64,000 nt of DNA, taken from Bacillota bacterium. Its GTDB lineage: Bacteria; Bacillota; Desulfotomaculia; Desulfotomaculales; Pelotomaculaceae. Both the position numbers and the translations under genes were made by a program. The notes beneath the pieces are model-generated. The model was not told the origin of the DNA. It did no database searches and worked only from the letters and a program-made list of their open reading frames with translations. The stretch covers positions 2,244 to 66,243 of the forward strand of contig DAOOVD010000003.1 in the NCBI GenBank assembly GCA_035369845.1, written 5' to 3'. Below, piece by piece: positions 7,719 through 27,927 of the stretch. Position 1 is the stretch's first letter. Every line of letters begins with the position of its first letter.

Positions 7719-7747
7719 AGTACCAACATCTCCTTTTTGGCTAATGG

Positions 7748-8632
7748 TTAACACTCTACCTGCTGAGAGATCAGCATCTGCCCTGAAAAATCCAGCGCTA
7801 CCCTCTCGATCACCAAACCTACAGTGCTTTCGATTTTCGGCAGCCACTTTTCGAGCAGGGCGTATTCTTCGTGTGCATGGTTAATTTCCAGAAAACTGCG
7901 GTACGTATTTTTTAGAAACTGCTCCAGTGTACTGTCCAACTCGTTCTTCATCTCTTCTATCTCGTGATTCTTTGTACTGCGCCCGATGGTGGCACTGAGG
8001 CTTTTTGCCACAGCCCGAACATAGAACAGAAGGTCCAGATGGGACTTCGCTACAGTACTTTTTATAGCTCCACGCCGGTAATTGTTCTCCAGAAGTTTAA
8101 GGCCGCAGACGGCAGCAGCCTTGTAGAACCAATCTGGGTCGGAAAAAGATTTTTTGAATACCAGGGCATTGCTTTTACCGACATATTTTGGGTCAGTTAA
8201 TTTCTTGACAACGTATTCCATAAACAAACAAAAATTGCGGGCTATCCACACCCCGCCGTCGAAATGGTCGCGGTTCTCTAGTTGATAAAGAGTTACTACG
8301 CCCGGCCTGGTCTTGCCGTTTCTTGTATAATCATTCAGCCAAGCAACCAGCTTGCTTTTGCTGGCAAGACCTTCCGGAACGTCGGACATTAAATCGGCAT
8401 AAAATATAGCATTGCAATGTTTGATCAGGTATACCTCGATAGCCACGTCAAGCTCGTGCTCTATCCTCTTTTGCGTCTCTGCGGCAATGAGTTTCTCCGG
8501 CGCCAGAAGCGTCAGTGCGCCGTCTGAACCCAACGACAGAAACGACTTTTTGGGCAGCAAATCATTAAACGACAACTTCAATATAATCGCCTCCCGCTCT
8601 CGCATCCAGCGATACCATGTTGCGCAGTTCAC
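7748..8632 (-). CDS. Hypothetical protein, cassette component B1
   Basis: 294-aa ORF, paralogue of B2. The exact start is uncertain because it overlaps the A1 3' end. Confidence 0.6.
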
Positions 8633-10079
8633 CGGCTATTTTTATCAAAAGGTCTGCGCAGTCCATAACATCTTTGTAGGCAACCGTATCTATAGACCGC
8701 CGCTCCATTTCATAACGTAGTTTGGTGACGTGTTTGCCTACGTCCTGCGCTATCTTCGTTACGATTTCCCGTACCCAGTAGCGGTCCTTTGTTTCAATTT
8801 GTTCCCTGGTCAGGCCGAGCAGCTCCGATTCGGCTTTTTCTTTTTCTTTCTTCAGGGTTTTAATCGTCTGCTTTAGTTCCTCATAATCCTCGGGCACTTT
8901 TTCAACTACTTCCGGCGGGCGGGATTCTAGTTCGACAATCTTCTTGTTCAGCTCCGCGATCTGTTCCTGAAGACTTTTTATCTTGGCGTCCCGGCTGGCA
9001 AGATCTTTGCGAAAACGTTCTTCAACGGCCCGGTGGGCATTGGTCAGCTTTTCTTCTATTTCCCTAACTTTGGCCTCGGCCTTTTCTTTATCCTGCTTGA
9101 GTTTTTCTGCCCTCTCAGATAACCGGTTCACTCTTTCCTGAAACTTGACAATTTCTTCCTCAACCGCCTTTTGTTCTTCTTTCCTTGCATCTTTTATGGC
9201 TTCTTCCATCCGGTTCTGAACATCGGAAAGCTCCCTGCGCACGTCATGCAGCTCGTCTTCAGCTTCGATGGCCCGGTTTTCCAGAGCCTGAGCATCGGCT
9301 TTGGCCCTTTCCAACTCCTTTTCCAGTTGCTCCTTTTCCTCGACTTTCTTGCGCAGTTCCTTTATTTCTGCAACAGTCATATCCGCAATTTGTTCTTTGA
9401 TCTGGCGGTAAATTTCAGTCTGCGCTTCGGGTGACAGATAGGCTACCTGCTCGGCTGCTGAGGTGCCCAGTTTACCGGAAGAAACCATTGCCTGAAATTC
9501 AGATATCAGGTCGTTGAGTTTTAAAATGCGTTTAACCGCCTTTTCGTTCGGCAGACCCAAAGCCTTTGCGATATCTTCGAGTGTTTTACCAGTATCTGTA
9601 TTTTTCAAGAGGACATTTTGTCCTCTTGAAATTTCCGAAAATTTTCCAGTATGCCTATCCCATCTCTTGCCGCCCCAGCCGACTTCCCAATACTTAGCCA
9701 GAAACTTTGCCCTTTTTGCCACCTTCATCGGGTCGCCACCGCCCTGCCGCCGCTCTTCGTTGTCAGCTATAAGCAGGTAAGTGATAATCTCTTCCCATTC
9801 TTCTTCGGTTTCAGCTCTCGGCCGGATCTCCTGGAACGGTACCTCTTTCAACCCTAGTTCCAGAGCTATGCGCAGCCGTTGGTGACCGGACACTACGGTG
9901 TTGTCCTCCAGTATCCACAGCGGTGTCCTGATTCCACCGGCCTCTATGCTCCGGCGGACCTCCTGGTATTTATCATTGTCCAGATCATCGTAGAACTCGG
10001 CATTTTTCGGGTGAGGTTTTAGCAGCTTTGGATCTATTAAACCCTCCTTGATTATGTCATATATTTTAGCATCGAGCAT
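8565..10079 (-). CDS. ParB/Srx-fold N-terminal domain + HTH + coiled-coil protein, cassette component A1
   Basis: LLKPHPKNAEFY..VVSGHQRLRIALELG..LIADNEERRQ, HTH-like KTLEDIAKALGLPNEKAVKRIL, and a long coiled coil. The central ~110 aa are nearly identical to A2. Confidence 0.7.
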   Translation of the reverse strand: MLDAKIYDIIKEGLIDPKLLKPHPKNAEFYDDLDNDKYQEVRRSIEAGGIRTPLWILEDNTVVSGHQRLRIALELGLKEVPFQEIRPRAETEEEWEEIITYLLIADNEERRQGGGDPMKVAKRAKFLAKYWEVGWGGKRWDRHTGKFSEISRGQNVLLKNTDTGKTLEDIAKALGLPNEKAVKRILKLNDLISEFQAMVSSGKLGTSAAEQVAYLSPEAQTEIYRQIKEQIADMTVAEIKELRKKVEEKEQLEKELERAKADAQALENRAIEAEDELHDVRRELSDVQNRMEEAIKDARKEEQKAVEEEIVKFQERVNRLSERAEKLKQDKEKAEAKVREIEEKLTNAHRAVEERFRKDLASRDAKIKSLQEQIAELNKKIVELESRPPEVVEKVPEDYEELKQTIKTLKKEKEKAESELLGLTREQIETKDRYWVREIVTKIAQDVGKHVTKLRYEMERRSIDTVAYKDVMDCADLLIKIAGELRNMVSLDARAGGDYIEVVV

Positions 10080-10871: not shown

Positions 10872-11681
10872 TTAGCCAACCAGTTCAATCAACTTTTCCC
10901 GCAACCACTCCGCTCCTGGCCCTCCCTTTGCAATGACGCTTTCGACCTTTGCATAAACCTTTTTTGCCTCCTGTATTTCGTCTGCTTCTTCCTTTTTTGC
11001 AATGTCTTTGAATTCATCGCTTGCCTCCTCTTCGATAATCAGTTTGCGCATCTGTCTGGTGCTCAGATGCTCGTCGGCAGCCCTGGCTAAGATTTCATAA
11101 GGGTCTTTCTTAGACGTTAACGCAATATTGTGGTGCTCAAACTTCAGGCCAGGTATCCGCATGCTTTCTTCGGGAAAAGCCTTGTAAACCTTCACATATT
11201 TTCTTATAAAAGAAACGCTTACATTTAGTTGCGATGCCAGCCACTTAACACTTACCCCAGTGGACAATAGGGCATCCAGCAACTGCGCTTTGGTCCACTT
11301 TATGTCAATTTCCTGTTCGTCTAGCGATATGTACGCCTGAATCAATTCCTCAATTCCAGGTTCCTGCTCTTTCTCCGACAGCGGAGGGAATTTGTCGGGT
11401 ACCGGTATTTCGATGGCCCGGCAGACTTCCTCGGGTGTTGTTTTCTCCCGCCTGGCAACTATCTGAACAAGCACCAGCCGGTCAATTTTATATTCCTGGG
11501 CGGCCCGGTGGTGCTCCGGGCACAGCCTGATTCTGTTTAACAATATGTCTTTACCGCCTGTACCTCTGGTTTTAATATGGTGCGTCTCGACGTAACCCGG
11601 TTTGCCGCAGTATTCGCACCAGGCAACCGGTTCTTCCAGTTCGTAAGCAGGTTTATTAAGCGGAATAGTTGCAAGCTCCAA
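10872..11681 (-). CDS. HNH endonuclease fused to a helix-turn-helix-like C-terminal half
   Basis: CEYCGK..ETHHIKTRG..NRIRLCPEHHRAAQ is an HNH/Cys-box pattern. The C-terminal region (SVKWLASQLNVSVSFIRKYVKVY .. LSTRQMRKLI) is HTH-like. Confidence 0.7.
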   Translation of the reverse strand: MELATIPLNKPAYELEEPVAWCEYCGKPGYVETHHIKTRGTGGKDILLNRIRLCPEHHRAAQEYKIDRLVLVQIVARREKTTPEEVCRAIEIPVPDKFPPLSEKEQEPGIEELIQAYISLDEQEIDIKWTKAQLLDALLSTGVSVKWLASQLNVSVSFIRKYVKVYKAFPEESMRIPGLKFEHHNIALTSKKDPYEILARAADEHLSTRQMRKLIIEEEASDEFKDIAKKEEADEIQEAKKVYAKVESVIAKGGPGAEWLREKLIELVG

Positions 11682-11709
11682 AAAACAAATCCCCCTTTCC
11701 TTCGAGCTA

Positions 11710-11943
11710 TTATAACCGATCTTTTAGTACTCGCAAGGTGCGCGACTTGCCTGGTTCGAAATCGATGTATCCCTGTCGCCTAATTTTTGTAAGATGTTCG
11801 TGAATAGTTGCTGACGATCTTAACCCAACTATTGCACCTATTTCCCTAACCGACGGCGAGTAACCCTTAACCTGGATAAATTCTCGTATTGCATTGTAAA
11901 TTTTTTGCTGGATCTCAGTCAAACTAAAACACCCCTCAACCAA
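11710..11943 (-). CDS. LexA-type winged-helix DNA-binding domain protein with no peptidase domain
   Basis: 77 aa. LTEIQQKIYNAIREFIQVKGYSPSVREIGAIVGLRSSATIHEHLTKIRRQGYI matches the LexA N-terminal domain. The ORF ends before any S24 Ser/Lys domain. Confidence 0.7.
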   Translation of the reverse strand: MVEGCFSLTEIQQKIYNAIREFIQVKGYSPSVREIGAIVGLRSSATIHEHLTKIRRQGYIDFEPGKSRTLRVLKDRL

Positions 11944-11949
11944 TTGGCC

Positions 11950-12210
11950 TTATGCTGTCATTTCCAGCTCAGTTATGCCCCGCTTTAAGTACAGCACTTT
12001 AACTCCGCGCCTCTTCGCCTCTTTTTTGACATAATGCATGGCTTTGTGGCTTATGAATCCGGTCAGGATTATGACTAGATCAACCATCGGCAGGGCAAAC
12101 ACCTTCTTGCTCCTGCCGTCCCAGTGCAGCACTTCTTCGGCGCCGAATTTTTTCTTAAGATAATCAGCTTTTGTGCCCAGGTTGTCAGCGCCCACAACCA
12201 AACATCGCAT
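11950..12210 (-). CDS. DUF2325-like small protein
   Basis: MRCLVVGADNLG..LVIILTGFISHKAMHYVKKEAKRRGVKV resembles the DUF2325 pattern. Start set at ATG 12210, which overlaps the stop of the upstream ORF (TGATG). The track ORF extends to 12270. Confidence 0.55.
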   Translation of the reverse strand: MRCLVVGADNLGTKADYLKKKFGAEEVLHWDGRSKKVFALPMVDLVIILTGFISHKAMHYVKKEAKRRGVKVLYLKRGITELEMTA

Positions 12211-12407
12211 CACTTTACACTCCTTTCCCTGTTTTTTTTGGGATATATACTGCCTTTTTTCATTTCCCACTCTACCGGACTATAAAACCTGGTCTTTTTT
12301 TTGATGCCCATCCTAACCAGCACAGGCCCTTTTCTGTCGAACATCCTGGCAATGTACTCCAACTGCTCAGGTGTGAAATCAGCAGGACTGCCTTTGAACC
12401 TTTCCAT
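12210..12407 (-). CDS. Hypothetical small protein (65 aa)
   Basis: ORF whose stop overlaps the next start, which suggests translational coupling; no motif recognised. Confidence 0.4.
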   Translation of the reverse strand: MERFKGSPADFTPEQLEYIARMFDRKGPVLVRMGIKKKTRFYSPVEWEMKKGSIYPKKNRERSVK

Positions 12408-12451
12408 AATCTTACCCCAAAAATACTGAGGGCCGGACTAACCGGCCCTGT

Positions 12452-14671
12452 TCAATTTTCTGCAACCTGATTTTGCAACCATATGCCAGAATTTTCGATT
12501 CTATCCCTGAGCTTTGTGTTTCTCGCTGACAACTTATTGTTTCTAACCGCTATCCAATAAGCTTTTTTGGTCCCTACCAGCACCACTTTTTCCTTGGCCC
12601 TCGACACCGCCGTGTAAATGAGCTTGCGGTTCAGCATGATATAGTGGCTGGTCGTCAGGGGGATCACCACCGCTTTGAACTCCGACCCCTGGCTTTTGTG
12701 GGCAGTGATCGCATAGGCCAGTTCCAGGTTGTGCAGCTCGCTTTTGCCGAACTCTACATCGCCTTGATGTTCAAAGTAAACCGTAATGCCAGCGGCTTCT
12801 CCGTTTTCGTTTTCTATCACGCGACTGATAATGCCGGTCTCGCCGTTAAAGACGCCGTACTCGCCCTTTTCGTAATTGTTTCGGACGCATATAACCCGGT
12901 CGCCAACCCGGAATACGGCATCGCCGCAAGTGATTTCTCTCCCTCCTGCCTTGCTGCTTGGGTTTAACCTTTCCTGCAACATGCGGTTTAGCGTTATAGT
13001 TCCGACTGGACCGTTCTTCATAGGAGACAGCACCTGTATATCATCCAGGGAGTAACCGAGTTTTAAAAACCTCATAACGCATCCGACAATTGTCCTGGTG
13101 ATTTCCTCCGGCTCGCTTTTCTCGATGAAATAAAAATCACCCCTGCCATGGTCGGGGTAAAAAACCTTCCCTTTATTTATTGCGTGCGCTCCGGTCACAA
13201 TCTGGCTTTGCGATGCCTGCCGGAACACTTTCTCCAACCTCACCGCAGGCACTCCCGCCGCCAGGAGATCAGCCAGGACATTGCCCGGCTCGACCGAAGG
13301 CAGCTGGTCGGCGTCGCCCACAAGCAACACGCGCGTGTCCTCGCCAACTGCGTCGAACAACATCTTCGCCATGCTTACGCCCATCATGGACACCTCGTCT
13401 ACGACCAGGAGGCCGCAGGGCAAAGGGCTGCTCCTGCAGTATGCCGGCGTTGGCGCGCCCGGCCTGAAACCCAACAACCTGTGGACCGTGCTCGCGCCCC
13501 TGCCGGTCACCTCGGCCAGCCTGCGGCTGGCCTTGCCGGTGGGCGACGCCAGGAGGACGGGTTTGCCGAAAAGGCTTTCGTAAACGCTTATCACTGCTTT
13601 TACGGCAGTGGTCTTGCCAACGCCGGGGCCGCCGGTCAAGATCAGCAGGTTGTTGTTCATCAGGCTAACCACGACCTGCTTCTGCTCGCTAGAAAGCCTT
13701 ATGCCTTCCCTAAGCTCGTACTGTTTAACGAGCCTTTCGACTTTTTCCGGCAAAATGACATCTTTCCGAGGCTTTAACATCGACCTAGCGCTCTCCGCCA
13801 GCAAAACTTCGTCTTTGTATAGCTTGGGAGTGTAGACTGCATTATCTTCTATTACCAGCCTGTCGCTACTGGACAGGTGCTTAAGCATATTGTCCACCTG
13901 TTCCCTTGTGACGCATTTCTTTTTATGATTCAGCAGTTTTAAGGCTTTTCCCAATAACTCTTCTCTTGTCGCATAGCAATAGCCGTTGTCCCAGATTATT
14001 TCTTTGAGCGACTGGCGGATTGCGCCTGCAATTCGGCCCGTGCTGTCAAGGGATACGCCCAAGCCCTGGGCGATGGCGTCAGCCTTCAGAAACCCGATGC
14101 TGTCTACTTCCATAAGACAGTACGGATTCCGCTTGACCAGCTCTGCAGTAGCGCCGCCGAACTTTTTATGTGCTTTCATGGCGGCATTGACGGATATGCC
14201 GAGCGGCAGGAGTTGCGATACAATCCTCTGGGCTTCGTAGGCGCCTCTCACGCTTTCATAGACTTCCTGGGGCTTCCGTAAACCTTTTATACCTGCAAGC
14301 GCTTCAACGCCTTTTTCCATGATGTTTTTTACCGCCTCGGCACCGAGTTTTTCGACGATCCTCTTGGCAGTGACCGGGCCGACTCCTTTAATCAGGCTGG
14401 AGGACAGAAATGCAATAGCCTGTTCTTCAGTGGTGGGTACGATACGCTCCCAGGTATCTACCCTAACCTGGCGGCCGTACTTCTGATGTACGTACCATTC
14501 ACCTTTTACAAAAATCCTCTCTTTTTCCTCCGCACTGTAGAGATTACCAGATATGATTGCCTGCTTGTCGTTATAAACAAACAGAGCGACGTGATAGTCA
14601 TCGCTTCTGCTTTTAAAATAAAAACGGGTTACATGACCTTCGGCTGAAAACGATTCTTTTGTTTCTTCCAA
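12452..14671 (-). CDS. RecD2-like SF1B DNA helicase
   Basis: 739 aa. N-terminal OB/HhH region (IKGVGPVTAKRIVEKLG), Walker A LTGGPGVGKTT, LLVVDEVSM, VLLVGDADQLPSV, and C-terminal AITAHKSQGSEF..YTAVSRAK. Confidence 0.85.
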   Translation of the reverse strand: MEETKESFSAEGHVTRFYFKSRSDDYHVALFVYNDKQAIISGNLYSAEEKERIFVKGEWYVHQKYGRQVRVDTWERIVPTTEEQAIAFLSSSLIKGVGPVTAKRIVEKLGAEAVKNIMEKGVEALAGIKGLRKPQEVYESVRGAYEAQRIVSQLLPLGISVNAAMKAHKKFGGATAELVKRNPYCLMEVDSIGFLKADAIAQGLGVSLDSTGRIAGAIRQSLKEIIWDNGYCYATREELLGKALKLLNHKKKCVTREQVDNMLKHLSSSDRLVIEDNAVYTPKLYKDEVLLAESARSMLKPRKDVILPEKVERLVKQYELREGIRLSSEQKQVVVSLMNNNLLILTGGPGVGKTTAVKAVISVYESLFGKPVLLASPTGKASRRLAEVTGRGASTVHRLLGFRPGAPTPAYCRSSPLPCGLLVVDEVSMMGVSMAKMLFDAVGEDTRVLLVGDADQLPSVEPGNVLADLLAAGVPAVRLEKVFRQASQSQIVTGAHAINKGKVFYPDHGRGDFYFIEKSEPEEITRTIVGCVMRFLKLGYSLDDIQVLSPMKNGPVGTITLNRMLQERLNPSSKAGGREITCGDAVFRVGDRVICVRNNYEKGEYGVFNGETGIISRVIENENGEAAGITVYFEHQGDVEFGKSELHNLELAYAITAHKSQGSEFKAVVIPLTTSHYIMLNRKLIYTAVSRAKEKVVLVGTKKAYWIAVRNNKLSARNTKLRDRIENSGIWLQNQVAEN

Positions 14672-14811
14672 AAAACCTGCTCCTTTCTAAAGAAAGGTTT
14701 CGAAATGGAGTTCTGCGACAATTGAGACATTTTTTCGGTAGGTTAGTCTTTGCGACGCTGTTACTAATCGATCACTGAAAGAAAAATCGTGGATTAACAA
14801 ATGTTTTTCCT

Positions 14812-15714
14812 TTACCTTGCGGCTTTTTTCGTAAAAGAAACTGTTCCGGGTTCCTTCTTTGGCACCAGGAATTTGCTGTTCTTTTGGTCAAAGGCCAGTT
14901 CGATTACTTCGCAGTTGCCAAATCTGTTTTTTATTACTACAAGTTCGACATTATTTGTTTTCTTGGGATCGCTGGATTTGACGAGGTTAATCGCTACATC
15001 AACGTCATAGTCAATATCTCCAGACTCCTTGAATCCATAGGCCATTTTATCTCCGTAATACGCGGCTCTGCTCAAGCCACTGATGAGCATAACCCCGACG
15101 TCTTTTTCATCTCCAGCAAGGCGCTGGAATTCTGCGCTTGCATTTGCTACTGCTATTCGGGGATCGTTTTCATGTCTGGTCTCGGCCAATTTCTGGAGGT
15201 AATCAACGATTACCAGGAATTTTGCATCCGGTTCTTTCTCTCTCCGGTACCCGTTGATTATTTCCAGGATCATTTTTACCGAAAAATTTTTGTCTATCTT
15301 TTTGAAGCAAATCCTGCCCTTTGTTGCTGTAAAGTGCTCTCGACCAGCTTTTTCAAAAACTTTCAGATCTCCCAACCCTCTAGTGTAAGCCGTTACATCG
15401 AGGTTGGAATATTGGCATATCATCCTGGTATGTAAATTCTCCAGTTTATTCTCAGCGAAGCAGTAGATGATCACTGAATCATCGAATTTAGCAACGTTGG
15501 TTGCTATCTGAAGGGCCAATGCAGTCTTGCCTACACCTGGTTGACCGCCGATTACTACCACACTGCCGGGATTAATCCCGTTTATCATGGCATCCAGATC
15601 AGGAATTCCGGTGGAAAATCCAGTGAAGCACCTTCCCGTGCTTTGAGCAGCATCTTTTCGTAACTGGCATTCTTTCACGGTCATTTCCAGTGATCTATCT
15701 AACCAAACGTCCAA
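14812..15714 (-). CDS. DnaB/RepA-type RecA-fold replicative helicase-like ATPase (C-terminal domain only)
   Basis: GIPDLDAMINGINPGSVVVIGGQPGVGKTALALQIA, LVIVDYLQ, MLISGLSR. Start placed at TTG 15714, 8 nt after AAGGAGG; ATG 15684 is an alternative. The track ORF (to 15798) runs into origin repeats. Confidence 0.7.
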   Translation of the reverse strand: MDVWLDRSLEMTVKECQLRKDAAQSTGRCFTGFSTGIPDLDAMINGINPGSVVVIGGQPGVGKTALALQIATNVAKFDDSVIIYCFAENKLENLHTRMICQYSNLDVTAYTRGLGDLKVFEKAGREHFTATKGRICFKKIDKNFSVKMILEIINGYRREKEPDAKFLVIVDYLQKLAETRHENDPRIAVANASAEFQRLAGDEKDVGVMLISGLSRAAYYGDKMAYGFKESGDIDYDVDVAINLVKSSDPKKTNNVELVVIKNRFGNCEVIELAFDQKNSKFLVPKKEPGTVSFTKKAAR

Positions 15715-15736
15715 AACTAAAACCTCCTTGAGAAGG

Positions 15737-15777
15737 AAGAGGGAGTGGCGGGTATTTATTGCCCGCCACTCCCTCTT
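15737..15777. repeat. Perfect 16-bp inverted repeat with a 9-nt loop, inside the origin region
   Basis: aagagggagtggcggg - tatttattg - cccgccactccctctt. No U-tract follows on either strand. Confidence 0.9.
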
Positions 15778-15778
15778 G

Positions 15779-15805
15779 AAGATCTTAAAGATCTTCAAGA
15801 TCTAC
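15779..15805. repeat. Three tandem 9-bp repeats, each containing AGATCT (a GATC site)
   Basis: aagatctta aagatcttc aagatctac. Confidence 0.9.
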
Positions 15806-15861
15806 AGCAAAATCGATGACCTCTCAGCCTTACTCTCCCAAGGCTCAGAAAATTTTTCCAT

Positions 15862-16003
15862 GTCCTGTGAGGTCGAGAAAATCGTCCTGTGAGATCGAGA
15901 AAATTGTCCTGTGAGATCGAGAAAATTGTCCTGTGAGATCGAGAAAATTCTCTATAGATGACTTAAGATACAGAAAAATATGCCCTGTGAGATCGAGAAA
16001 ATC
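15862..16003. repeat. Iteron array: four contiguous 22-bp direct repeats plus a fifth copy after a 32-bp spacer
   Basis: gtcctgtgag(g/a)tcgagaaaat(c/t) at 15862, 15884, 15906 and 15928; gccctgtgagatcgagaaaatc at 15982. The array abuts the stop of the 303-aa ORF. Confidence 0.9.
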
Positions 16004-16004
16004 C

Positions 16005-16916
16005 TTAGCTCCTTTTTCTTCCAGCCAATATTACATGGTATATGTTGCCATCATAGTTGTAGTCTTCTATTACAAACGGATTCAGTTTCGACAAGATGTT
16101 TTCGATTGCCTTTTGAACCTTATCCTTTCTGTTACTTGATATGTTGCAGATTTCCCTGAGTTTTTCCAGCTTAAATTTGAGGTTTGTGTCAGGAATTCTT
16201 GAAGCCAAATAATAAGCAATATTTTTTATGCCATTTGCAACTATCGGATTTTTTTGTTGGTGAGCAATTTCCAACGCCTTGACAGGTACGGGAGCAGGAA
16301 TAATATCATTTATAGTTCTTGAATAATATTTGTTTATATGAATGTAAACGGGTTGTTTGTTTGTTGGAATCGCTATGTCGTCAATTTTAACGGTCCTTCC
16401 TACTCCATCGATAAAACCAAAAATTATATATTGGGTCTCAATTCTTCCTTTTTCATTTTTAAAGCGCCAGGGGTAATTCTTAATTGTATATGCGCGACAA
16501 AAAGTCAAGATATTCATTATGTTCTCAATATTTTTCCCGTTGGTTGATAACCCCAAAAGGTTTGCCAGTTTATATGTACTGGTTTTAACCATTAGATTTG
16601 CTCTATCGCCGCTAGTTAAGTACATCTGCGTAGAAGCCGCTATAACATCCCGCGCCATGCCCATGAGCCTTGCATATTGGAACAGTTCTACAGGGACATA
16701 AAATACTCTGTCATCTCCCGGCCATTTCCACTGGACAACTTGACAATAATCACCGGTATGGATCCGGTCATAGGCCAGTAGGTTTTCGTTTTTGGTGACA
16801 TCTTGCTGTAATGGGCGGAACAGATTAGTATCCCTGGCTGCATTGCGGTCGATGTTAATGACGTTGGGTTCTAACCAGGAAAACTTTTTTAGTTTACTGG
16901 TGTTCAATCTCATCAT
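16005..16916 (-). CDS. Putative replication initiator (function inferred from the adjacent iterons)
   Basis: 303-aa ORF immediately upstream of the iteron array and helicase genes. I recognise no sequence motif, so the function is from context only. Confidence 0.5.
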   Translation of the reverse strand: MMRLNTSKLKKFSWLEPNVINIDRNAARDTNLFRPLQQDVTKNENLLAYDRIHTGDYCQVVQWKWPGDDRVFYVPVELFQYARLMGMARDVIAASTQMYLTSGDRANLMVKTSTYKLANLLGLSTNGKNIENIMNILTFCRAYTIKNYPWRFKNEKGRIETQYIIFGFIDGVGRTVKIDDIAIPTNKQPVYIHINKYYSRTINDIIPAPVPVKALEIAHQQKNPIVANGIKNIAYYLASRIPDTNLKFKLEKLREICNISSNRKDKVQKAIENILSKLNPFVIEDYNYDGNIYHVILAGRKRS

Positions 16917-18348: not shown

Positions 18349-18588
18349 CTAATATTTAACCCGCTGGATTGGCTTTCGCGAATCGGCCGGATCGTTTGTC
18401 TTTTCCTTTAGAAGAAGTATGCGGGCCAAAATATCGACCGCTTCATCGTAATCTTTCTGCCAGCCAGGTTTAGGAATAAACTTATGGGTCACAGCATACG
18501 ATTTTGTCCTGCTGCTTTTGCAGAGCATTTTCTCAAACCTTTCTAAAAAACAGAATCTAAGATTCGAATAAAAAGCATCCTTTCTCAA
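18349..18588 (-). CDS. Hypothetical small protein (79 aa) coupled to the Cro-like gene
   Basis: 4-nt overlap with the upstream XRE gene; no motif recognised. Its position would suit an excisionase/RDF or an early gene, but that is speculation. Confidence 0.45.
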   Translation of the reverse strand: MRKDAFYSNLRFCFLERFEKMLCKSSRTKSYAVTHKFIPKPGWQKDYDEAVDILARILLLKEKTNDPADSRKPIQRVKY

Positions 18589-18842
18589 CTAAACTGCAGT
18601 ACGGCTTGTTCTATTTCGTCATTTATATGCGACATTTCGTTCGGTTTGAGGTCATAAAAAATCACATCCAAAGGTTCGCCGAATAATTCCTGTATTTTAA
18701 GGGCAATGTGCAGCTTCGGGGTCCTAATGCCGGTTTCGAACATGCCATAAAGCCTGTCCGATATACCGAGCTGTGCCGCAACTTCTTTCTGAGTCCATCT
18801 TCTTTCTTTGCGCAATTTTATCAGGTATTCTCTTTTTGCCAT
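18585..18842 (-). CDS. XRE-family HTH regulator (Cro-like, leftward)
   Basis: LRKERRWTQKEVAAQLGISDRLYGMFETGIRTP is an XRE HTH. ATG 18842 follows GGGGTGA. The track start at TTG 18860 is less likely. Confidence 0.8.
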   Translation of the reverse strand: MAKREYLIKLRKERRWTQKEVAAQLGISDRLYGMFETGIRTPKLHIALKIQELFGEPLDVIFYDLKPNEMSHINDEIEQAVLQFS

Positions 18843-19028
18843 ATACGTCACCCCTACCAATTTTAAGTTTATTTTAATTATACAGAACTAACTGTAGTTA
18901 GTCAACTAATTTAACTACATATTGTTCTTTTATATTTTTTATAATACCATAAAGATATTTCATATAAAACTTTAAACAAATAATCCTGTAATCAGATAAT
19001 CATTTTCTCTTAAGGAGAGGCGGAAAGT
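18843..19028. promoter_or_regulatory. Divergent promoter/operator region between the two XRE genes
   Basis: 186-bp AT-rich spacer. Inverted repeat ACTAACT-GT-AGTTAGT at 18887-18902, overlapping TTAGT-CA-ACTAA at 18898-18909, repeated AACTA motifs, and TATAAT at 18940-18945. Confidence 0.6.
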
Positions 19029-19433
19029 ATGGAATTAGAAAAAAGCCGGATGTTTGTAAAAAGGCTGAAACAGGAAAGAGAAATAAAGGGAATCACTCAA
19101 AAAGAATTAGGAGCATTGCTTGGGGTAACTGACCGAGCTGTTGGCCTCTGGGAAACAGGCAGGCGCATGCCCGATGCTGATATGCTTTTGAAGCTAGCCG
19201 AGATTTTTGATTGCACTGTTGATTATCTGCTCGGTGCTACGAATGAACGGAAATCTCGTACTGGCACTGATTTTGATCCTGAAATGGCTGAAATATTTAA
19301 TCGAGCTAAAAAATTAAGCCCAGAGGGGCGGGAATATTTCAAAAAAGCCGTTAAATGGATTTTTGAAGTCGATAAGGATAGGGAAGCATTGAAAAAATTA
19401 AAGGGAAAGGCAAAAAAAGATTTTATGAACTAG
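19029..19433 (+). CDS. XRE-family HTH repressor-like protein (ImmR/CI-like, rightward)
   Basis: KGITQKELGALLGVTDRAVGLWETGRRMPDADMLLKLAEIFDCTVDYLLG. AAGGAGAGG lies upstream of the ATG. Confidence 0.8.
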   Translation: MELEKSRMFVKRLKQEREIKGITQKELGALLGVTDRAVGLWETGRRMPDADMLLKLAEIFDCTVDYLLGATNERKSRTGTDFDPEMAEIFNRAKKLSPEGREYFKKAVKWIFEVDKDREALKKLKGKAKKDFMN

Positions 19434-19688
19434 TTATGCTTATATCCCTGTCCTCGAGGGGGGGGTGAGTATGTCTTCCATGCGTTACGTTACACGGACA
19501 GTTTTTTGTAAGTGGCCTCAGTTGAACGGGGCTGCCTGCTGGTTTTACCGGTAGAATCCTTCGATTTTGGTCGAACCAGGCTTCACATAATACAATTATT
19601 GTCTTCCTGTGACTATTATGGTAATATTAGCAATAGAACATTTGTTCTGTTCATTAAAACCAAAACCTTCAAGAAAGGAGCTGTACTG

Positions 19689-20510
19689 GTGGAATCAACC
19701 TATTCACCCGGAACCACAAAAGCGCAGGAGTTAATAACCCGCGTAAAGCCTTCATATCCGCTTGATATAGTGTGGCTTTTGGATAAACTCAACGAGTTTA
19801 AGATGAATAAGCAGGTCCAACTGGTACCCTGCGATTACTTGCCAGACAGCGTCAGCGCTTCCCTAATACAGCACCCCGGACTTAATTACCAGTATATTAT
19901 TTATAATTCCGCCCATAACATTGAAAGAAAAAGGTTCAGCGTAGCGCATGAGTTTGGCCACCTTGCCTTGGAGCATAAGGCCTACAGCATCGGCGACGAC
20001 GAAGATCCGGCAATAAAAAAAGAAGCGGACGACTTCGCGACAGAGCTCCTGATGCCTCGGTCAAAATTTACTTATGCTGCAGCCGTGAATTTCCACCTTG
20101 ATCCGATATCGCTCGCGATGAAACTGCGCGACAGGCGGCATTTCTGGACGTCGCTGGAAGCAACGTGCAGAAGACTGCTCGACCTCGGCCTGTTTACGGG
20201 AGCTTTTGTTTTGTATGACAGCAACAGGCGGTATTTCTTATACAATTCCGAAGATTTCGACCCCTGCGAAGATAGGGCGGAGATCATCAACAAGCTACTG
20301 AACGAATTTAAACATACTGCCAACCCGAAAAAATTTTCAACAAAAACTTCCGACCTCTTCTTTTTCGCCCGGAAATTCTCAAGCGGCCAAATACTTGTTG
20401 CCTTAACCCCAAAAGACTGCATCGGAAGCAGTTTATATTTTAAAATCGCAGAGCAAAGTGCCTTTTGGCCCGTTGCCGGAGAGGTTTGTATAGACGGCCA
20501 TAATCTCTGA
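19689..20510 (+). CDS. ImmA/IrrE-family metallopeptidase
   Basis: FSVAHEFGHLALEH (HExxH) with downstream ADDFATELLMP. Start placed at GTG 19689, 8 nt after AAAGGAG. The track ORF starts at 19512. Confidence 0.75.
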   Translation: MESTYSPGTTKAQELITRVKPSYPLDIVWLLDKLNEFKMNKQVQLVPCDYLPDSVSASLIQHPGLNYQYIIYNSAHNIERKRFSVAHEFGHLALEHKAYSIGDDEDPAIKKEADDFATELLMPRSKFTYAAAVNFHLDPISLAMKLRDRRHFWTSLEATCRRLLDLGLFTGAFVLYDSNRRYFLYNSEDFDPCEDRAEIINKLLNEFKHTANPKKFSTKTSDLFFFARKFSSGQILVALTPKDCIGSSLYFKIAEQSAFWPVAGEVCIDGHNL

Positions 20511-20520
20511 GGTGATCAAA

Positions 20521-22419
20521 ATGACGAACTCGCAATTTATTGCGCTATACGCAAGGGTTTCTACTGAAGAGCAAACCGAGAATTTCAGCATACCGGCGCA
20601 GATGGAGCTTTTGAGAAGCTACTGCCGCAGCATGAATTATACGATATACAGCGAATACATTGACGCCGGCTATTCCGGCACAACACAGGATCGGCCCGAA
20701 CTTCAGCGCCTGTTGAGGGACGCTGAACAGGGAAAGTTTCAGGTAATTCTCGTCTACCGGATTGACCGTTTCTTCCGAAGCGTTAAGGATCTCCTCTTCA
20801 TTGTCGATTACCTCGACAGCATCGGAGTTTCTTTTCGTTCGGTTACCGAGCCCTTCGATACGATGAACCCAATCGGAAAATTCATGCTTTCCCTGCTTGG
20901 TTCAATAGCTCAGCTCGAACGGGATACTTTCATAGAACGGTCCAGGATGGGTAAAATGAGACGCGCGGAAGAGGGTTATGTCGTGCTCACCCACCCTCCT
21001 TTCGGCTACGACTATATAATACCTGAAAGAAAAACCGGCGATGACGGCAAGAAACAGAAGAATGGCAAAAGGGGCTATCTGGTTATAAATGACGAAGAAG
21101 CGGAAACAGTTGGCCTCATATTTAAAGAGTACATAAAACCAGACAGCAGCACGTACTCAGTAGCTGAATTGTTGACAAAATTAGGCAAAAGAACCAAACG
21201 TAACGGAAAGTGGACAGGAGAAAGGGTCTACGCCGTATTGACCGACACCTGCTATGTCGGAGAATGGCTTTACAAGGGAATCAAGGTGCAGATACCCAGT
21301 ATCATCGACCGTGAAACCTTTGATAAGGCTCAAAATCTGTTAAAAGAGCGGAGAAACATGATCCACAGGAAGACGCCCAGACAGTACCTCCTGCGCGGTT
21401 TGCTCAGGTGCGGATACTGCGGCTCTCATATGGGAGGGACCACTGAAGTAGCGAAACACAGGAAAAACGGGAAAAAATACGGGGAACCTTATGGCGAAAC
21501 CCATTACTACAGATGCCACAAGAACATTATGTCCTCAAGAAACAAAAGAGCCGACCGCTGTGATGCTCCCTGGATAAGGGGAGAAGAACTGGAACGGCAT
21601 GTGCTTTCCTATCTTGCCTTGACACTTTCTAACTCTGAAAGGCTTCAAGAAGCTATAAATTCTCACAACAATTCAACAGGCGCCAAAAGGGCAGAACTGG
21701 AGAACAAAATAAAAGATCTTAACAAAAAACTAATGAAACTTTTAAATGAAAAAGAAAGAATATTGCAAGCTTACAGGGAAGGCGTAATTGAAATATCCGA
21801 CCTTAAAAAGGAAATCGACCTGGTAAAAGAGAAACAGACCTCACTCGAACAGAATATTGAAGAACTCAGGTTATATTTAAACCTGGAAAACGAAAGGATT
21901 AATAACATCAATAACCTTGCCGAAAAATACAAAAACCTGAATTTGGAAAATATATTAAACGCTCCATTTAACGAAAAAAGAGATCTTCTTATGAAACTTG
22001 TTTCAAACATTTGGGTAAAGAGCAGGGACAACCCGATTAAAGTTAACATCGAATGTATAATACCAGAACTGGACCACCCACTTGACGAGCGTGCAGGTAC
22101 TACAACACCGCTTGCGTTACATGCACGAGACCCGTCTCGGAAAAAGCTCGCCTGGTGTCTCTGTCAATGGGTCCCTGTATGCCGAATACGATGCCGTTCA
22201 CAATCCGGGCCCAGGCAGGCGGAAGGCCGGCCGCCGCACCGGCCGCAAGCCTCTGTTTCAGCGTCAGGACGGCTTTCAACAGGGGGTTGGCCGAATATTC
22301 GCCGGTTCTTTCAACCGCTCCCCGTCCACGGCAAAAAAGCGTCACTTTTATCCCCTGGCGCTCCAGGTAGGTCCTGTAGTCAAACAAGCCGGGGTTGCCG
22401 GAGGATGCGGGCCGGCTGA
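20521..22419 (+). CDS. Large serine recombinase (integrase); the ORF has no stop inside the element and reads on into antisense comEC
   Basis: ALYARVSTEEQ catalytic Ser region, VYRIDRFFRS, recombinase domain, zinc ribbon CGYCGSHM..YYRCHK, and a coiled coil. Recombinase-like sequence ends near aa ~530 (about 22110). The last ~100 aa are Arg/Pro/Gly-rich antisense-derived sequence. Confidence 0.85.
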   Translation: MTNSQFIALYARVSTEEQTENFSIPAQMELLRSYCRSMNYTIYSEYIDAGYSGTTQDRPELQRLLRDAEQGKFQVILVYRIDRFFRSVKDLLFIVDYLDSIGVSFRSVTEPFDTMNPIGKFMLSLLGSIAQLERDTFIERSRMGKMRRAEEGYVVLTHPPFGYDYIIPERKTGDDGKKQKNGKRGYLVINDEEAETVGLIFKEYIKPDSSTYSVAELLTKLGKRTKRNGKWTGERVYAVLTDTCYVGEWLYKGIKVQIPSIIDRETFDKAQNLLKERRNMIHRKTPRQYLLRGLLRCGYCGSHMGGTTEVAKHRKNGKKYGEPYGETHYYRCHKNIMSSRNKRADRCDAPWIRGEELERHVLSYLALTLSNSERLQEAINSHNNSTGAKRAELENKIKDLNKKLMKLLNEKERILQAYREGVIEISDLKKEIDLVKEKQTSLEQNIEELRLYLNLENERINNINNLAEKYKNLNLENILNAPFNEKRDLLMKLVSNIWVKSRDNPIKVNIECIIPELDHPLDERAGTTTPLALHARDPSRKKLAWCLCQWVPVCRIRCRSQSGPRQAEGRPPHRPQASVSASGRLSTGGWPNIRRFFQPLPVHGKKASLLSPGAPGRSCSQTSRGCRRMRAG

Positions 22420-22861
22420 TAAGTCCCGTCGCCCTCAGCATATCGCCGTAGCCGCGCACCTGCTCCGGATCTTTCTCCACAAGCCTGACGGTTCCGGAAA
22501 TCTCCCGCCGCTCCCCGCCGGCGGAAACTTCCCGCGCCTTCACCAGATAAAACACCCTGTCTTCGCGCACGTCCGGCTCCGCGGCCACCCAGCCGGTGAC
22601 GGTGACCCGCCTGCCTTCGTAGTCCAGCAGCGCCGTCTCACTCCCCGCGAGCCAGAGGCGGCTTGCGGCCAGGCCCGTCAACACAAAGAGAACAACGATG
22701 ACAAGCCGGCCGCCCCGCCATCCCCGGACGTACCAGACCAGAGCCGCCAAAAAGCAAAAAGCCGCCAGGGCCAAAGCCGTGGAAGCCTTTATCACTGCAA
22801 AACCGCCGATTAATATGCCGGCCGCATACGACACCGTCAACACGACCAGGGGCCTGTTCAT
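22100..22861 (-). pseudogene. comEC: comEC 5' fragment (N-terminal membrane/DUF4131-like region), interrupted by the element
   Basis: N-terminal TM helices, OB-like region and RRAFSETGLVHV, where ComEC proteins normally continue ..H(L/V)LAISGLH.. Here the frame ends TQAVL-stop at the GC/AT composition break. Confidence 0.75.
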
Positions 22862-22894: not shown

Positions 22895-23596
22895 TCAAGC
22901 GGTGAAATTAACCTTGTTTTTAAGCACTTTCCTTACATAGTCTCTGGTTTCCCGGTAGTTGGGTATCCCGCCCGCCCTGTCGACCGCGCCGGGACCGGCG
23001 TTATAAGCGGCAAGAGCCAGGCTGACGTCGCCGCCGTACCGGTCGAGCATCTGTTTCAAATAACGGGTCCCCCCGTCGATATTCTGGGCCGGGTCGTAAG
23101 GGTTTTTCACTCCCAGCGAAGCCGCCGTTTCCGGCATCAACTGCATCAGACCCATCGCCCCCGCAGGCGACGTGGCCCCCGGGTTGAAACTGGATTCGGC
23201 CCGAATCACCGATTTCACCAGGTCCGGGTCCACTCCGTATTTCTCAGCCGTACTCTCGATCAGTTTCTCGAGACCGGAAACACCAACCCCGGCCGTCCTC
23301 CCGCCGGCGGCTCCGGGACTGCGGGCGCCGGGCGCACGTCCCCCGGCGCTTCCCTCAGCCCGTGACACCGCACGTGTTCCGCTTTTACGTTTCTCCGCCG
23401 CGCCGGCGCCTGCGGACGGCGACTTGAAATCGGTTCCGGCCAGGGCGAGGAAGAGAAAAACCGAAAAAAGATCATCGAGTCCGCGCCGGCCGTCCTCCCT
23501 GCCCGCTTCCATCGCGCTTGTCGCACAGTCCAGCATCAGTATTCTGATCAGCGGATTGATATCCATTGTAAATCTCCTAAAAAAATCCTTCTCCAA
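22895..23596 (-). CDS. Lytic transglycosylase (SLT domain) protein
   Basis: [39 protein letters not shown]. Confidence 0.85.
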
Positions 23597-27285: not shown

Positions 27286-27927
27286 TCAATAAACCGTTAT
27301 GCTGTCTTTCAGCCTTTCATAGTTTTTATCCCCTATCCCGGAAACATTTTTCAAATCCTCGGGCGTTCTGAACGGTCCGTTTGCTTCGCGGTACTGAATG
27401 ATCCGCTGGGCAAGCGCAGGGCCGATGCCGGGCAGGGTATCCAACTGGCTCACATCCGCAGTGTTTATGTTGACAAGCCCCCCTGCCGGCAACGTCTCTG
27501 CCGTACCCGGCCGGCCTTTGTTGAGAACAACGCCCAGCGCCGCACCCGGCCCTGCATCCGATTTTGACGGAACGGTTATGGTCTGCCCGTCGATGACCGG
27601 CGAGGCGAGCTTCAAGGTATCCAGCGCGGCATCTTCAGCGGGGCCGGCCATGTTTACCGCGTCGATAACCCTGGAACCCTCCGGAATCTGATAGACACCG
27701 GGCCTTGCCACGGCGCCGGCCACATGCACCTTGAATTCTTTGACCCTGTTCTCCCGCGGGCTTTCCAGCGCGGGCCTGCTTTCTGCCGCGGCCTTCTCTT
27801 TGATCTGGGCGTAACGGTATCCGCCGCCGAAAAGAATCACTCCCGCGAGGACAAGTACAACCAACTGCTGTTTGCGTTCAAGCCGGAACATGGAATTGCG
27901 CCCCCGTTGCCTTTTTTTGCTGTACAT
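27286..27927 (-). CDS. comEA: ComEA-family DNA receptor (SLBB + tandem helix-hairpin-helix)
   Basis: VNINTADVSQLDTLPGIGPALAQRIIQYREANGPFRTPEDLKNVSGIGDKNYERLK, plus an N-terminal TM helix. Confidence 0.85.
   Translation of the reverse strand: MYSKKRQRGRNSMFRLERKQQLVVLVLAGVILFGGGYRYAQIKEKAAAESRPALESPRENRVKEFKVHVAGAVARPGVYQIPEGSRVIDAVNMAGPAEDAALDTLKLASPVIDGQTITVPSKSDAGPGAALGVVLNKGRPGTAETLPAGGLVNINTADVSQLDTLPGIGPALAQRIIQYREANGPFRTPEDLKNVSGIGDKNYERLKDSITVY

What the first reader, a model, noticed from the sequence alone, without database searches (positions are those of the whole stretch)
22060..22861. Element is integrated inside comEC, in a spore-former and next to a serine recombinase
The 253-aa minus-strand ORF has the ComEC N-terminal architecture. 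It ends at ..RRAFSETGLVHV-TQAVL-stop, exactly where ComEC proteins continue with the conserved H(L/V)LAISGLH segment. Base composition switches at the same point. The rest of comEC should therefore lie beyond the left end of the element, outside the window. Serine-recombinase elements that split genes and excise to restore them are established in Firmicutes (phage insertion in Listeria comK; skin and SPbeta in B. subtilis sporulation genes). A split comEC would make DNA uptake depend on excision, which would be a candidate active-lysogeny switch.
Basis: partly seen in the sequence, partly recalled or inferred. Interest (0 to 1): 0.6.

Follow-up and report, generated by a model that had tools for sequence, protein, structure and literature searches.

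The report
Mobile element splits comEC and its own integrase
A mobile DNA element has inserted, by its own serine recombinase, into one conserved codon of the DNA-uptake gene comEC of a spore-forming anaerobe; this is a known habit of such elements, but here the insertion also cuts a DNA-binding tail off the recombinase itself.

Summary

- **The split gene.** Window 22861..22122 (-) is the first 247 codons of comEC. The missing 563 codons lie on another contig of the same genome (C18:1936-3625).
- **Restoration.** Joining the halves at a shared CA dinucleotide gives an intact 810-aa ComEC. It passes the ComEC/Rec2 model in one stretch across the joint and is colinear with the intact ComEC of 24 relatives. 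There is no second comEC copy.
- **The element.** It is at least 26 kb and incompletely assembled. It has an ImmR/ImmA-type switch and plasmid-like replication genes. No phage structural genes were seen, so it looks like an integrative, possibly conjugative, element rather than a prophage.
- **The recombinase clade.** Every integrated relative I examined (40-78% identity, Desulfotomaculia-type Bacillota and Omnitrophota) sits at the same His codon of comEC.
- **New twist.** attP lies inside the recombinase gene. Integration removes a roughly 190-aa tandem-HTH tail, and excision would rebuild a 729-aa protein that matches a 722-aa free-form homologue end to end.
- **Precedent.** Serine-recombinase elements in comEC are published for streptococci, so this is a new lineage and variant of a known kind.

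The parts
22122..22861 (-). comEC 5' part, codons 1-247 (OB-fold/DUF4131 domain and the first residues of the Competence domain)
   Evidence: PF13567 E 1.1e-31. It joins in frame to C18:1936-3625 to give an 810-aa ComEC.
22100..22121 (-). Six element-encoded codons (VTQAVL) plus TAG that end the truncated comEC ORF. This stretch is also the P' half-site of the hybrid attachment site.
   Evidence: Sequence. The conserved P' arm TGTRAYGCMAGYGGTG is seen in five independent junctions.
22100..22145 (.). Hybrid attachment site: comEC half of attB, crossover dinucleotide, and the recombinase-proximal half of attP. The core is TG at 22122-22123 on the + strand, which is CA on the comEC strand.
   Evidence: CA is the only sequence shared by both junctions in D. 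putei, and GTGCA is shared in this genome. The reconstructed attP is an imperfect inverted repeat, 12-15 of 22 symmetric positions, centred on CA.
20512..22121 (+). Large serine recombinase, element-encoded codons 1-537 (catalytic domain, recombinase domain, zinc ribbon with coiled coil)
   Evidence: PF00239 1.4e-40, PF07508 6.6e-14, PF13408 1.8e-13. It has 691 homologues at E<=1e-20, the closest 52-78% identical.
22122..22419 (+). Read-through tail of the recombinase ORF in the integrated state (99 codons antisense to comEC, not recombinase sequence)
   Evidence: In relatives the tail is only 8 codons long (SHEPGRFR-stop).
19512..20510 (+). ImmA/IrrE-type M78 metallopeptidase (maximal ORF). 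Its stop lies 1 nt before the recombinase start.
   Evidence: PF06114 E 4.9e-13
19029..19433 (+). ImmR/CI-like XRE repressor
   Evidence: PF01381 E 2.1e-15
18585..18860 (-). Cro-like XRE gene, first gene of the leftward operon
   Evidence: PF01381 E 2.5e-12
18877..19000 (.). Divergent promoter region of the switch
   Evidence: Leftward TTGACT-17-TATAAT (11 of 12 matches) at 18905..18877, and rightward candidates at 18971-19000. These are consensus matches only.
10872..16916 (-). Replication and DNA-processing module: unknown 303-aa protein (candidate initiator), DnaB_C helicase, RecD2-like helicase, DUF2325, HNH nuclease
   Evidence: Pfam hits. DUF2325, RecD2 and HNH are also found in the related element L023, which carries a T4SS pilin gene.
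6..10079 (-). Cargo: two ParB-like / unknown / ClpX-like cassettes (subject of another finding)
22895..23596 (-). Host flank: SLT lytic transglycosylase directly upstream of comEC
   Evidence: PF01464 1e-33. The same comEA-slt-comEC order is seen in D. putei and L016.
27286..27927 (-). Host comEA (SLBB + HHH_3)

Best explanation
An integrative mobile element of at least 26 kb is inserted in comEC by its own large serine recombinase (LSR).

**Target site.** The crossover is at the CA of the codon for His247. This is the first His of the conserved H-(I/L)-L-S-V-S-G-x-H motif at the start of the membrane-channel (Competence) domain.

**Integrated state.**
- comEC is cut into a 247-codon 5' piece (in the window) and a promoterless 563-codon 3' piece (contig C18). 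There is no second copy, so the host should be unable to import DNA through ComEC (inferred).
- attP lies inside the recombinase ORF, in a linker after the zinc-ribbon/coiled-coil domain. Integration therefore also truncates the recombinase after residue 537. Its roughly 190-aa C-terminal tandem XRE-HTH tail is left at the far end of the element, facing inward and without an obvious start.

**After excision.** Precise excision would rebuild both an 810-aa ComEC and a 729-aa recombinase-HTH protein (shown in silico).

**The recombinase clade.** It is specialised for this codon across genera and at least two phyla. Insertion orientation follows the orientation of the central dinucleotide relative to int, as expected for serine integrases.

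**Control of excision (inferred).** It probably works as in ICEBs1-type elements. int is co-transcribed with immR-immA, and an unidentified directionality factor would come from the divergent, repressor-controlled operon.

**Why comEC (inferred).** The most likely reasons are that the site is very conserved and therefore portable, and that loss of transformation protects the element from being cured by homologous recombination.
For: **The split and its repair**
- The joined ORF is 810 aa. It scores 269.9 bits on TIGR00361 (cut-off 190) in one stretch, residues 147-791. PF03772 matches positions 1-265/270 in one stretch across the joint.
- 24 relatives have intact ComEC aligned 1-809 at 43-61% identity, and the DNA is colinear at the site.
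- No other comEC copy exists in the genome.

**Attachment sites**
- att structure is.
- A free-form attP with the same architecture is in L024.

**Clade at the same codon**
- L016, D. putei L017/L019, L020/L021, L022, L023 and Omnitrophota L027/L028.
- Among 162 species genomes of the class, the four further carriers tested (of six) have Competence-domain hits that start at profile position 17-22. The same is true here (21) and in D. putei (18).

**Recombinase split**
- The excised-form ORF is 729 aa.
- It aligns as one HSP (49% identity over 706 aa) with the contiguous 722-aa P0010, which has mobile-element genes on both sides.
- The D. putei attP reconstruction is also in frame.
- The tail is two HTH_3 domains.
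- An AlphaFold2 model of P0010 places the junction in a linker with pLDDT<50 (residues 523-557), between the LSR core and the HTH domains.

**Switch genes**
-.
Against:
- The assembly contains only the integrated junctions.
- The element is interrupted by contig breaks. It carries an IS21-like transposase with a frameshift and an IscB-like gene, which could mean a long and possibly immobile residence.
- No directionality factor was identified.
- Whether the host is naturally transformable at all is unknown.
- The function of the HTH tail is inferred only from architecture.
- Adjacency of int and comEC in G045, G104 and G115 is inferred from separate contigs.
Confidence: 0.85

Rival explanations
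1. Competence switch (active-lysogeny-like). The element excises reversibly under defined conditions, so that ComEC is made only then, and it re-integrates afterwards.
For: - Both comEC halves, the recombinase and all four att half-sites are intact, and the joint is seamless.
- The precedent is the Listeria comK prophage (PMC7397523).
- The split of int gives a possible state-sensing device.
Against: - There are no excision data.
- The assembly has no attB or attP contig.
- The regulatory module is the ordinary ImmR/ImmA type.
- Intactness is equally explained by a recent insertion.
- Insertion into competence genes is generally read as selfish inactivation (PMC12378983, PMC4774983).
Confidence: 0.12
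2. Sporulation-linked rearrangement of the skin/SPbeta type. The element is excised in the mother cell to rebuild comEC during sporulation.
For: - The host has SpoIVA.
- LSR-borne intervening elements are common in spore formers (PMC4191935, PMC5595907).
- Related elements carry Spo0E-like and Spo0A_C genes.
Against: - comEC is not known as a mother-cell sporulation gene (established knowledge of the B. subtilis comE operon).
- The same recombinase clade uses the same codon in Omnitrophota, which do not sporulate.
- int is in the immR-immA operon, not under a recognisable sporulation promoter.
Confidence: 0.04
3. Dead insertion. The element is a decaying, immobile remnant and comEC is permanently lost.
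For: - IS21-like (frameshifted) and IscB-like insertions lie inside the element.
- The recombinase lacks its tail and carries a 99-aa nonsense extension.
- A relative (G139) seems to have a truncated int, and G016 keeps a decayed comEC relic that ends at the same codon.
Against: - There are no stops or frameshifts in either comEC half or in the recombinase core.
- The att half-sites are conserved.
- The tail ORF is still open and in frame with int after in-silico excision. This would not be maintained for long without selection.
Confidence: 0.15
4. Assembly or binning artefact. The two comEC halves come from different strains, or the junctions are chimeric.
For: The genome is a 103-contig draft, and the element is broken at contig ends.
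Against: - Both junctions lie well inside contigs.
- The halves join without gap or overlap.
- The same junction sequence is found in a cultured strain and in at least five independent assemblies.
Confidence: 0.01

Closest known systems
Streptococcal comEC/celB-integrating elements: Phi1207.3 (Tn1207.3), Phi10394.4, Tn1207.1 (PMC4260502; listed in review PMC12378983)
   Same: Site-specific insertion inside the comEC coding sequence at a dinucleotide core, by serine recombinases, which abolishes the DNA-uptake channel gene.
   Different: - The recombinases are only 26-28% identical to this one, so this is an independent lineage.
- Their core is GA rather than CA.
- They are prophages or defective transposons with two or three resolvase genes.
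- The source read here does not report a split of the recombinase gene.
- Whether the position within ComEC is the same was not determined.
Listeria A118-like prophage phi10403S in comK (active lysogeny; PMC7397523)
   Same: A serine-integrase element interrupts a competence-pathway gene, and precise excision restores it.
   Different: - There the target is the regulator comK, and excision without lysis has been shown experimentally.
- Here the target is the channel gene, the element is not a phage, and no excision data exist.
skin (SpoIVCA) and SPbeta (SprA/SprB) intervening elements of Bacillus (PMC4191935, PMC5499854)
   Same: An LSR-borne element splits a gene in an endospore former, and the frame is restored in silico by attL x attR recombination.
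   Different: - Their targets are mother-cell sporulation genes, and their excision is developmentally programmed.
- comEC is not such a gene, and this clade also occurs in non-sporulating Omnitrophota.
SSV1-type archaeal integrases (attP inside int; review PMC8371274) and mycobacteriophage integration-dependent immunity (attP inside the repressor gene; own knowledge, Broussard et al. 2013)
   Same: attP lies inside a gene of the element, so the integrated and free forms encode different proteins.
   Different: - Those systems use tyrosine recombinases.
- Here a serine recombinase keeps all catalytic and site-binding domains and loses only an accessory tandem-HTH tail.
ICEBs1 ImmR-ImmA-Int module (own knowledge)
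   Same: The gene order is XRE repressor, M78-type anti-repressor protease, integrase, with a divergent operon starting with a small HTH gene.
   Different: - ICEBs1 has a tyrosine integrase and integrates at a tRNA gene.
- Conjugation genes were not linked to this element.

Membership tests
Large serine recombinase (serine integrase) integrative elements | N-terminal resolvase catalytic domain, recombinase domain and zinc-ribbon domain with an embedded coiled coil | tested here: met
   PF00239, PF07508 and PF13408. Long paired helices 379-476 are inserted in the zinc-ribbon domain in the AF2 model of homologue P0010.
Large serine recombinase (serine integrase) integrative elements | attP is an imperfect inverted repeat around a 2-bp crossover, and identity between attB and attP is limited to the core | tested here: met
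   Only CA is shared in D. putei, and GTGCA here. attP arms have 12-15 of 22 symmetric positions. The free attP in L024 is built the same way.
Large serine recombinase (serine integrase) integrative elements | The orientation of insertion is set by the central dinucleotide | tested here: met
   Elements with TG on the int-sense strand lie convergent with the comEC 5' part (window, L016, L017, L020, L023). Those with CA lie co-directional, next to the comEC 3' part (L022, L028).
Large serine recombinase (serine integrase) integrative elements | A recombination directionality factor is needed for excision | not tested
   No candidate was identified. RDFs have no common family.
Mobile elements that disrupt competence genes (comEC class: Phi1207.3/Tn1207.1 type) | Site-specific insertion inside the comEC ORF, with the frame restored on excision | tested here: met
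Mobile elements that disrupt competence genes (comEC class: Phi1207.3/Tn1207.1 type) | Recombinase orthologous to the Phi1207.3 recombinases, with the same GA target | tested here: not met
   26-28% identity to orf56/orf57. The core is CA, not GA.
Temperate prophage (prerequisite for 'active lysogeny') | Genes for terminase, portal, capsid, tail and lysis | tested here: not met
   None were found among the ORFs scanned, which are most of the ORFs of 79 aa or more in window 1-22100 (PHROGs on ten of them and Pfam on all). The element is incompletely assembled, so absence is not proven.
Integrative conjugative element | Type IV secretion genes (VirB4, coupling protein, relaxase) within the element | tested here: inconclusive
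   No VirB4 family hit in the genome. A VirD4-type gene lies on contig C22, which cannot be linked to the element. The related element L023 has a TrbC/T4SS pilin gene.
Sporulation-gene intervening elements (skin, SPbeta, gin) | The interrupted gene is sporulation-specific and excision is developmentally timed | not testable with these tools
   comEC is not a known sporulation gene (own knowledge).
Elements whose attP lies inside one of their own genes (SSV1-type int partition, integration-dependent immunity) | The free and integrated forms encode different versions of an element protein | tested here: met
   729 aa in the excised form against 537 aa plus a nonsense tail in the integrated form. 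The second reconstruction, in D. putei, is.

The most novel reading that the evidence does not exclude
The split of the recombinase gene is a built-in state sensor.

- Only the excised circle can make the full-length recombinase with its tandem-HTH tail. That form could be competent for integration, or could repress the element's own promoters.
- The integrated element makes a tail-less enzyme that, with an RDF, is poised for excision.
- One LSR clade with this device has specialised on a single His codon of comEC across phyla (Bacillota and Omnitrophota).
- As a result, DNA uptake by the host and the form of the recombinase are toggled by the same crossover.
Probability: 0.3. Interest if true: 0.7.

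Novelty: new variant of a known kind. Interest (0 to 1): 0.45.

Why it matters
**What it adds**
- It extends the known conflict between mobile elements and natural transformation from streptococci to environmental, spore-forming sulfate-reducer-type Bacillota and to Omnitrophota.
- It shows that one recombinase clade recognises a single, very conserved comEC codon across phyla.
- It gives a set of natural attP/attB pairs, with both orientations explained by the core dinucleotide.

**The recombinase split**
- The recombinase gene is itself cut by integration and loses a DNA-binding tail.
- I found no published case of this for serine integrases in the library searched.
- It could be a simple natural way to make recombinase activity depend on integration state.
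- That would interest people studying mobile-element control and people who use serine integrases as tools.

**A system to test it in**
- A cultured carrier exists, Desulforamulus putei DSM 12395, so the excision and switch questions can be tested directly.

Tried and rejected
- **Junction contigs.** I searched the assembly for attB or attP junction contigs and found none. This is uninformative for rare excision.
- **Related loci.** The search for related loci with the single recombinase returned only an unrelated 24%-identity Maribacter hit. Homologue search plus contig look-ups worked instead.
- **Closing the element.**
  - The start of C18 shares 55 bp with the start of C90 (an IS-type repeat).
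  - The start of C3 has no overlap with any contig.
  - The IscB-like and IS21-like proteins have no other copies in the assembly.
- **Conjugation genes.**
  - No VirB4 family hit was found.
  - A VirD4-type gene lies on C22, but C22 has its own second serine recombinase fragment, a group II intron and type I-C cas genes. It cannot be tied to this element.
- **Shared cargo.** tblastx of related elements L016 and L024 against the genome found essentially only the integration module, a little of the regulatory region next to it, and the HTH tail. The elements are mosaics around a common int/att cassette.
- **Prophage reading.** Rejected, because no phage structural hits were found.
- **Wider survey.** An even sample of 400 genomes of the phylum holds only distant (37-46% identity) recombinase matches. 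The close clade is confined to this order or class in the genomes held.
- **Literature.** Searches for a serine integrase with attP inside its own gene, or for LSR + comEC outside streptococci, found nothing relevant. That is not proof of absence.
Full report
**1. The observation**

The minus-strand ORF 22100..22861 (253 aa) is present. It matches the ComEC N-terminal domain PF13567/DUF4131 (E 1.1e-31). GC content rises from 0.41 (21-22 kb) to 0.60 (22-23 kb). A 635-aa ORF (20512..22419, +) carries the three domains of a large serine recombinase. It converges on the comEC fragment and overlaps it. comEA lies 4.4 kb upstream (27286..27927, -) and an SLT transglycosylase sits directly upstream of comEC.

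**2. The other half of comEC**

The window is C3:2244-66243 of a 103-contig genome. The only Competence-domain (PF03772) hit in that genome is on contig C18, at 1925-2671. It starts at profile position 21 and lies in an open frame of 575 aa without a proper start.

- The window fragment ends ...ETGLVH|VTQAVL*. The C18 frame reads ...CVVH|ILSVSGLHVG.
- Both junctions share GTGCA.
- Joining them at CA gives an uninterrupted 810-aa ORF.
- That ORF passes the ComEC/Rec2 equivalog TIGR00361 (269.9 bits, cut-off 190) with one stretch, residues 147-791.
- It also has DUF4131, Competence (profile 1-265/270, one stretch over the joint at residue 247) and Lactamase_B.
- Twenty-four genomes of the same family or order have one intact ComEC that aligns 1-809 with the reconstruction (43-61% identity).
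- The own genome has only the two halves plus an unrelated MBL-only paralogue.
- A DNA alignment of five relatives is colinear through the site, with no indel.

**3. Attachment sites**

All sequences below are given in comEC orientation.

| Site | Left arm | Core | Right arm |
|---|---|---|---|
| attL | ..GGGTCTCGTG | CA | TGTAACGCAAGCGGTG.. |
| attR | ..ACACCGCTTGTGTTGTG | CA | CATTTTGAGTG.. |
| attP (reconstructed) | ACACCGCTTGTGTTGTG | CA | TGTAACGCAAGCGGTGT |

- The reconstructed attP is an imperfect inverted repeat, with 15 of 22 positions symmetric. attB is only weakly symmetric, at 7 of 22.
- In Desulforamulus putei the two junctions share only CA. This fits the 2-bp crossover of serine recombinases.
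- CA is the start of the His247 codon in the motif H-(I/L)-L-S-V-S-G-x-H.

**4. A recombinase clade dedicated to this codon**

Homologues of 52-78% identity exist in metagenomes and in D. putei DSM 12395. Every integrated one I looked up lies against a comEC fragment.

| Locus | Recombinase (identity) | Source | What flanks it |
|---|---|---|---|
| L016 | P0003 (76%) | metagenome contig | DUF4131-only ORF of 252 aa |
| L017 | P0004 (60%) | D. putei | DUF4131-only ORF of 248 aa; Competence part on another contig from profile position 18 |
| L020/L021 | P0007 (57%) | metagenome contigs | truncated DUF4131 ORF |
| L023 | P0011 (55%) | metagenome contig | comEC 5' fragment at contig end |
| L022 | P0009 (55%) | metagenome contig | comEC 3' part, co-directional |
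| L027/L028 | P0022 (42%) | Omnitrophota MAG | comEC 3' part, co-directional |

- The five attL junctions all read (comEC)..CA|TGTRAYGCMAGYGGTG.
- In L022 and L028 the recombinase lies co-directional with the comEC 3' part and directly upstream of it. The junction is again at the CA of the same His codon.
- In those two the core reads CA on the int-sense strand, whereas it reads TG in the window. This is what is expected if the central dinucleotide alone sets insertion polarity (own knowledge of Bxb1 and phiC31).
- Of 162 species genomes of the class, 7 carry a close homologue. In four of these tested for the Competence domain, the hit begins at profile position 17-22, which means it is truncated.
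- An even sample of 400 genomes of the phylum has only distant matches.

**5. The recombinase gene is split too**

- In the integrated state the ORF runs through the junction into 99 nonsense codons antisense to comEC. Relatives stop after 8 such codons (SHEPGRFR*).
- Joining the element's two ends (attP form) extends the frame into C18:1935..1359 (-). This gives 729 aa.
- The added 194 aa contain two HTH_3 domains.
- This protein aligns as one HSP with the 722-aa homologue P0010: 49% identity over 706 residues, with no gap at the joint.
- P0010 is encoded on metagenome contigs where mobile-element genes flank it on both sides and no comEC is nearby. The predicted attP (CTCCACCACTTGCGCCAGG-TG-TACAGGACAAGCGGTGGAG) sits inside its ORF.
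- The D. putei ends also rebuild an open frame, with ..TTPPLASHGQHQQWNSNNTFDLAVE.. homologous to P0010.
- An AlphaFold2 model of P0010 (mean pLDDT 75) shows a confident LSR core to about residue 520. A linker with pLDDT<50 follows at 523-557 and holds the junction residues (about 531-538). Then come a helix and two HTH bundles.
- Integration therefore removes an accessory DNA-binding tail and leaves the catalytic and site-binding domains. In the integrated state the tail ORF faces inward from the junction and has no evident promoter or start.

**6. What the element is**

From the junction leftwards the element carries the following genes.

- int, an ImmA-type M78 peptidase, and an ImmR-like XRE repressor.
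- A divergent promoter region with a near-consensus leftward promoter.
- A Cro-like XRE gene and an unknown 303-aa protein.
- A DnaB_C helicase, a RecD2-like helicase, DUF2325 and an HNH nuclease.
- Two ParB-like/ClpX-like cassettes.

No phage structural or lysis genes were found. The element continues past the window to the start of C3, where there is an IscB-like gene. On the other side it ends at C18:1935, preceded by a frameshifted IS21-like transposase. It is therefore at least 26 kb and not closed.

A related element (L023) shares DUF2325, RecD2 and HNH and has a T4SS pilin gene. A VirD4-type gene exists on contig C22, but linkage to this element is unproven. Related elements share essentially only the int/att cassette, a little of the regulatory region next to it, and the tail.

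The best label is an integrative, possibly conjugative or mobilisable, element with a portable comEC-targeting integration module.

**7. Host**

LeuS is 76% identical to 'Peptococcaceae bacterium BRH_c4a/b' and 70% identical to a Desulforudis MAG. SpoIVA is present. 'Spore-former' is therefore reasonable at the genotype level.

**8. How it most likely works**

- *Shown:* the anatomy, the seamless in-silico restoration of both genes, and the clade-wide site specificity.
- *Inferred from established LSR biology:* Int alone catalyses attP x attB, and attL x attR needs a directionality factor.
- *Inferred from the gene order* (immR-immA-int, with the int start 1 nt after the immA stop): int is made constitutively with the repressor, and excision is triggered when ImmA-type cleavage de-represses the leftward operon.
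- *Inferred from ComEC biology:* the lysogen cannot import DNA.
- *Speculative:* the HTH tail makes recombinase function or expression depend on integration state.
- I found no evidence for programmed, reversible excision. The Omnitrophota members argue against a sporulation-specific logic.

**9. Comparison with what is known**

- Insertion into comEC/celB at a dinucleotide core by serine-recombinase elements is published for Phi1207.3/Tn1207.3, Phi10394.4 and Tn1207.1 (PMC4260502). A 2025 review lists it among the ways mobile elements disable competence (PMC12378983; see also PMC4774983).
- The Phi1207.3 recombinases are only 26-28% identical to this one.
- Gene partition by an internal attP is known for archaeal SSV-type tyrosine integrases (PMC8371274), and in minor form for a bacterial tyrosine integrase (PMC12169736).
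- I found no report of this for a serine integrase.
- Earlier notes of this scan report comEC-splitting LSR elements in CPR, Actinobacteria, Lachnospiraceae and Omnitrophota, including one Omnitrophota case with a split recombinase. These are unchecked leads that agree with my reading, not independent evidence.

**10. Verdict**

The comEC insertion is a new lineage of a known phenomenon. The reciprocal split of the recombinase gene is the feature worth following up.

The limits are these:
- the element is not closed;
- no directionality factor was identified;
- the transformability of the host is unknown.

Noticed in passing
L013 (G016:C2) about 9960-10140, minus strand: A relative that has an intact comEC elsewhere also keeps a decayed comEC relic (residues 187-247, one internal stop). 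The relic ends at the same His-codon position. It lies between a LysR gene and a ComM/YifB-like gene, next to an IS21 and an IS605-type transposase. It looks like the scar of an old insertion followed by rearrangement.
   Followed up: partly
G014:C23:23060-27443 and G014:C165:1873-2559: In another relative, comEC is broken near residue 580-600. Inverted MBL-domain pieces lie 2 kb away and a further 3' piece is on another contig. This is a different disruption or rearrangement of the same gene.
   Followed up: no
phage records PV036436.1, PV036435.1, PV036424.1 and others (L030): Gut 'Ca. Heliusvirales' NatCom phage records from Lachnospiraceae carry a ComEC-like 3' part (query residues about 291-805) as the terminal ORF of the record. 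This is either a flank of a prophage inserted in comEC or a phage-borne ComEC-like gene.
   Followed up: no
genome contig C3:1-981 (upstream of the window) and C18:49-1355: An IscB-like ORF (PLMP motif, RuvC-like, arginine-rich) is cut by the contig start. An IS21 IstA-like gene with a frameshift lies at the other contig start. Both are inside the element and probably caused the assembly breaks.
   Followed up: partly
genome contig C22 (38.6 kb, GC 0.43-0.54): This low-GC contig carries a VirD4-type coupling protein, a group II intron reverse transcriptase, a UvrD-like helicase, a type I-C-like cas gene set, and the C-terminal part of a second large serine recombinase at its end. It is another mobile element, or an unlinked part of this one.
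   Followed up: partly
L020 542-730; L024 1879-2067 and 7279-7620: Related elements with the same comEC-targeting integrase carry Spo0E-like phosphatase genes, and one carries a Spo0A_C-domain gene. These are candidate tools for interfering with the host's sporulation decision.
   Followed up: no
L016 1731-3642; L017 377-2010: Cargo next to the same integration cassette differs widely. One metagenome element has a DarT-Macro (DarTG-like) pair and a tyrosine integrase. In D. putei a RecA paralogue and an Abi_C gene sit directly beside int.
   Followed up: no
window 22082-22419 (+): All comEC 5' fragments stop 4-6 codons after the junction at a TAG. That TAG is the complement of the Thr-Thr codons (ACT ACN) of the recombinase's conserved TTP(P)LA segment. 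The early stop in truncated comEC is therefore a by-product of the recombinase coding sequence.
   Followed up: yes
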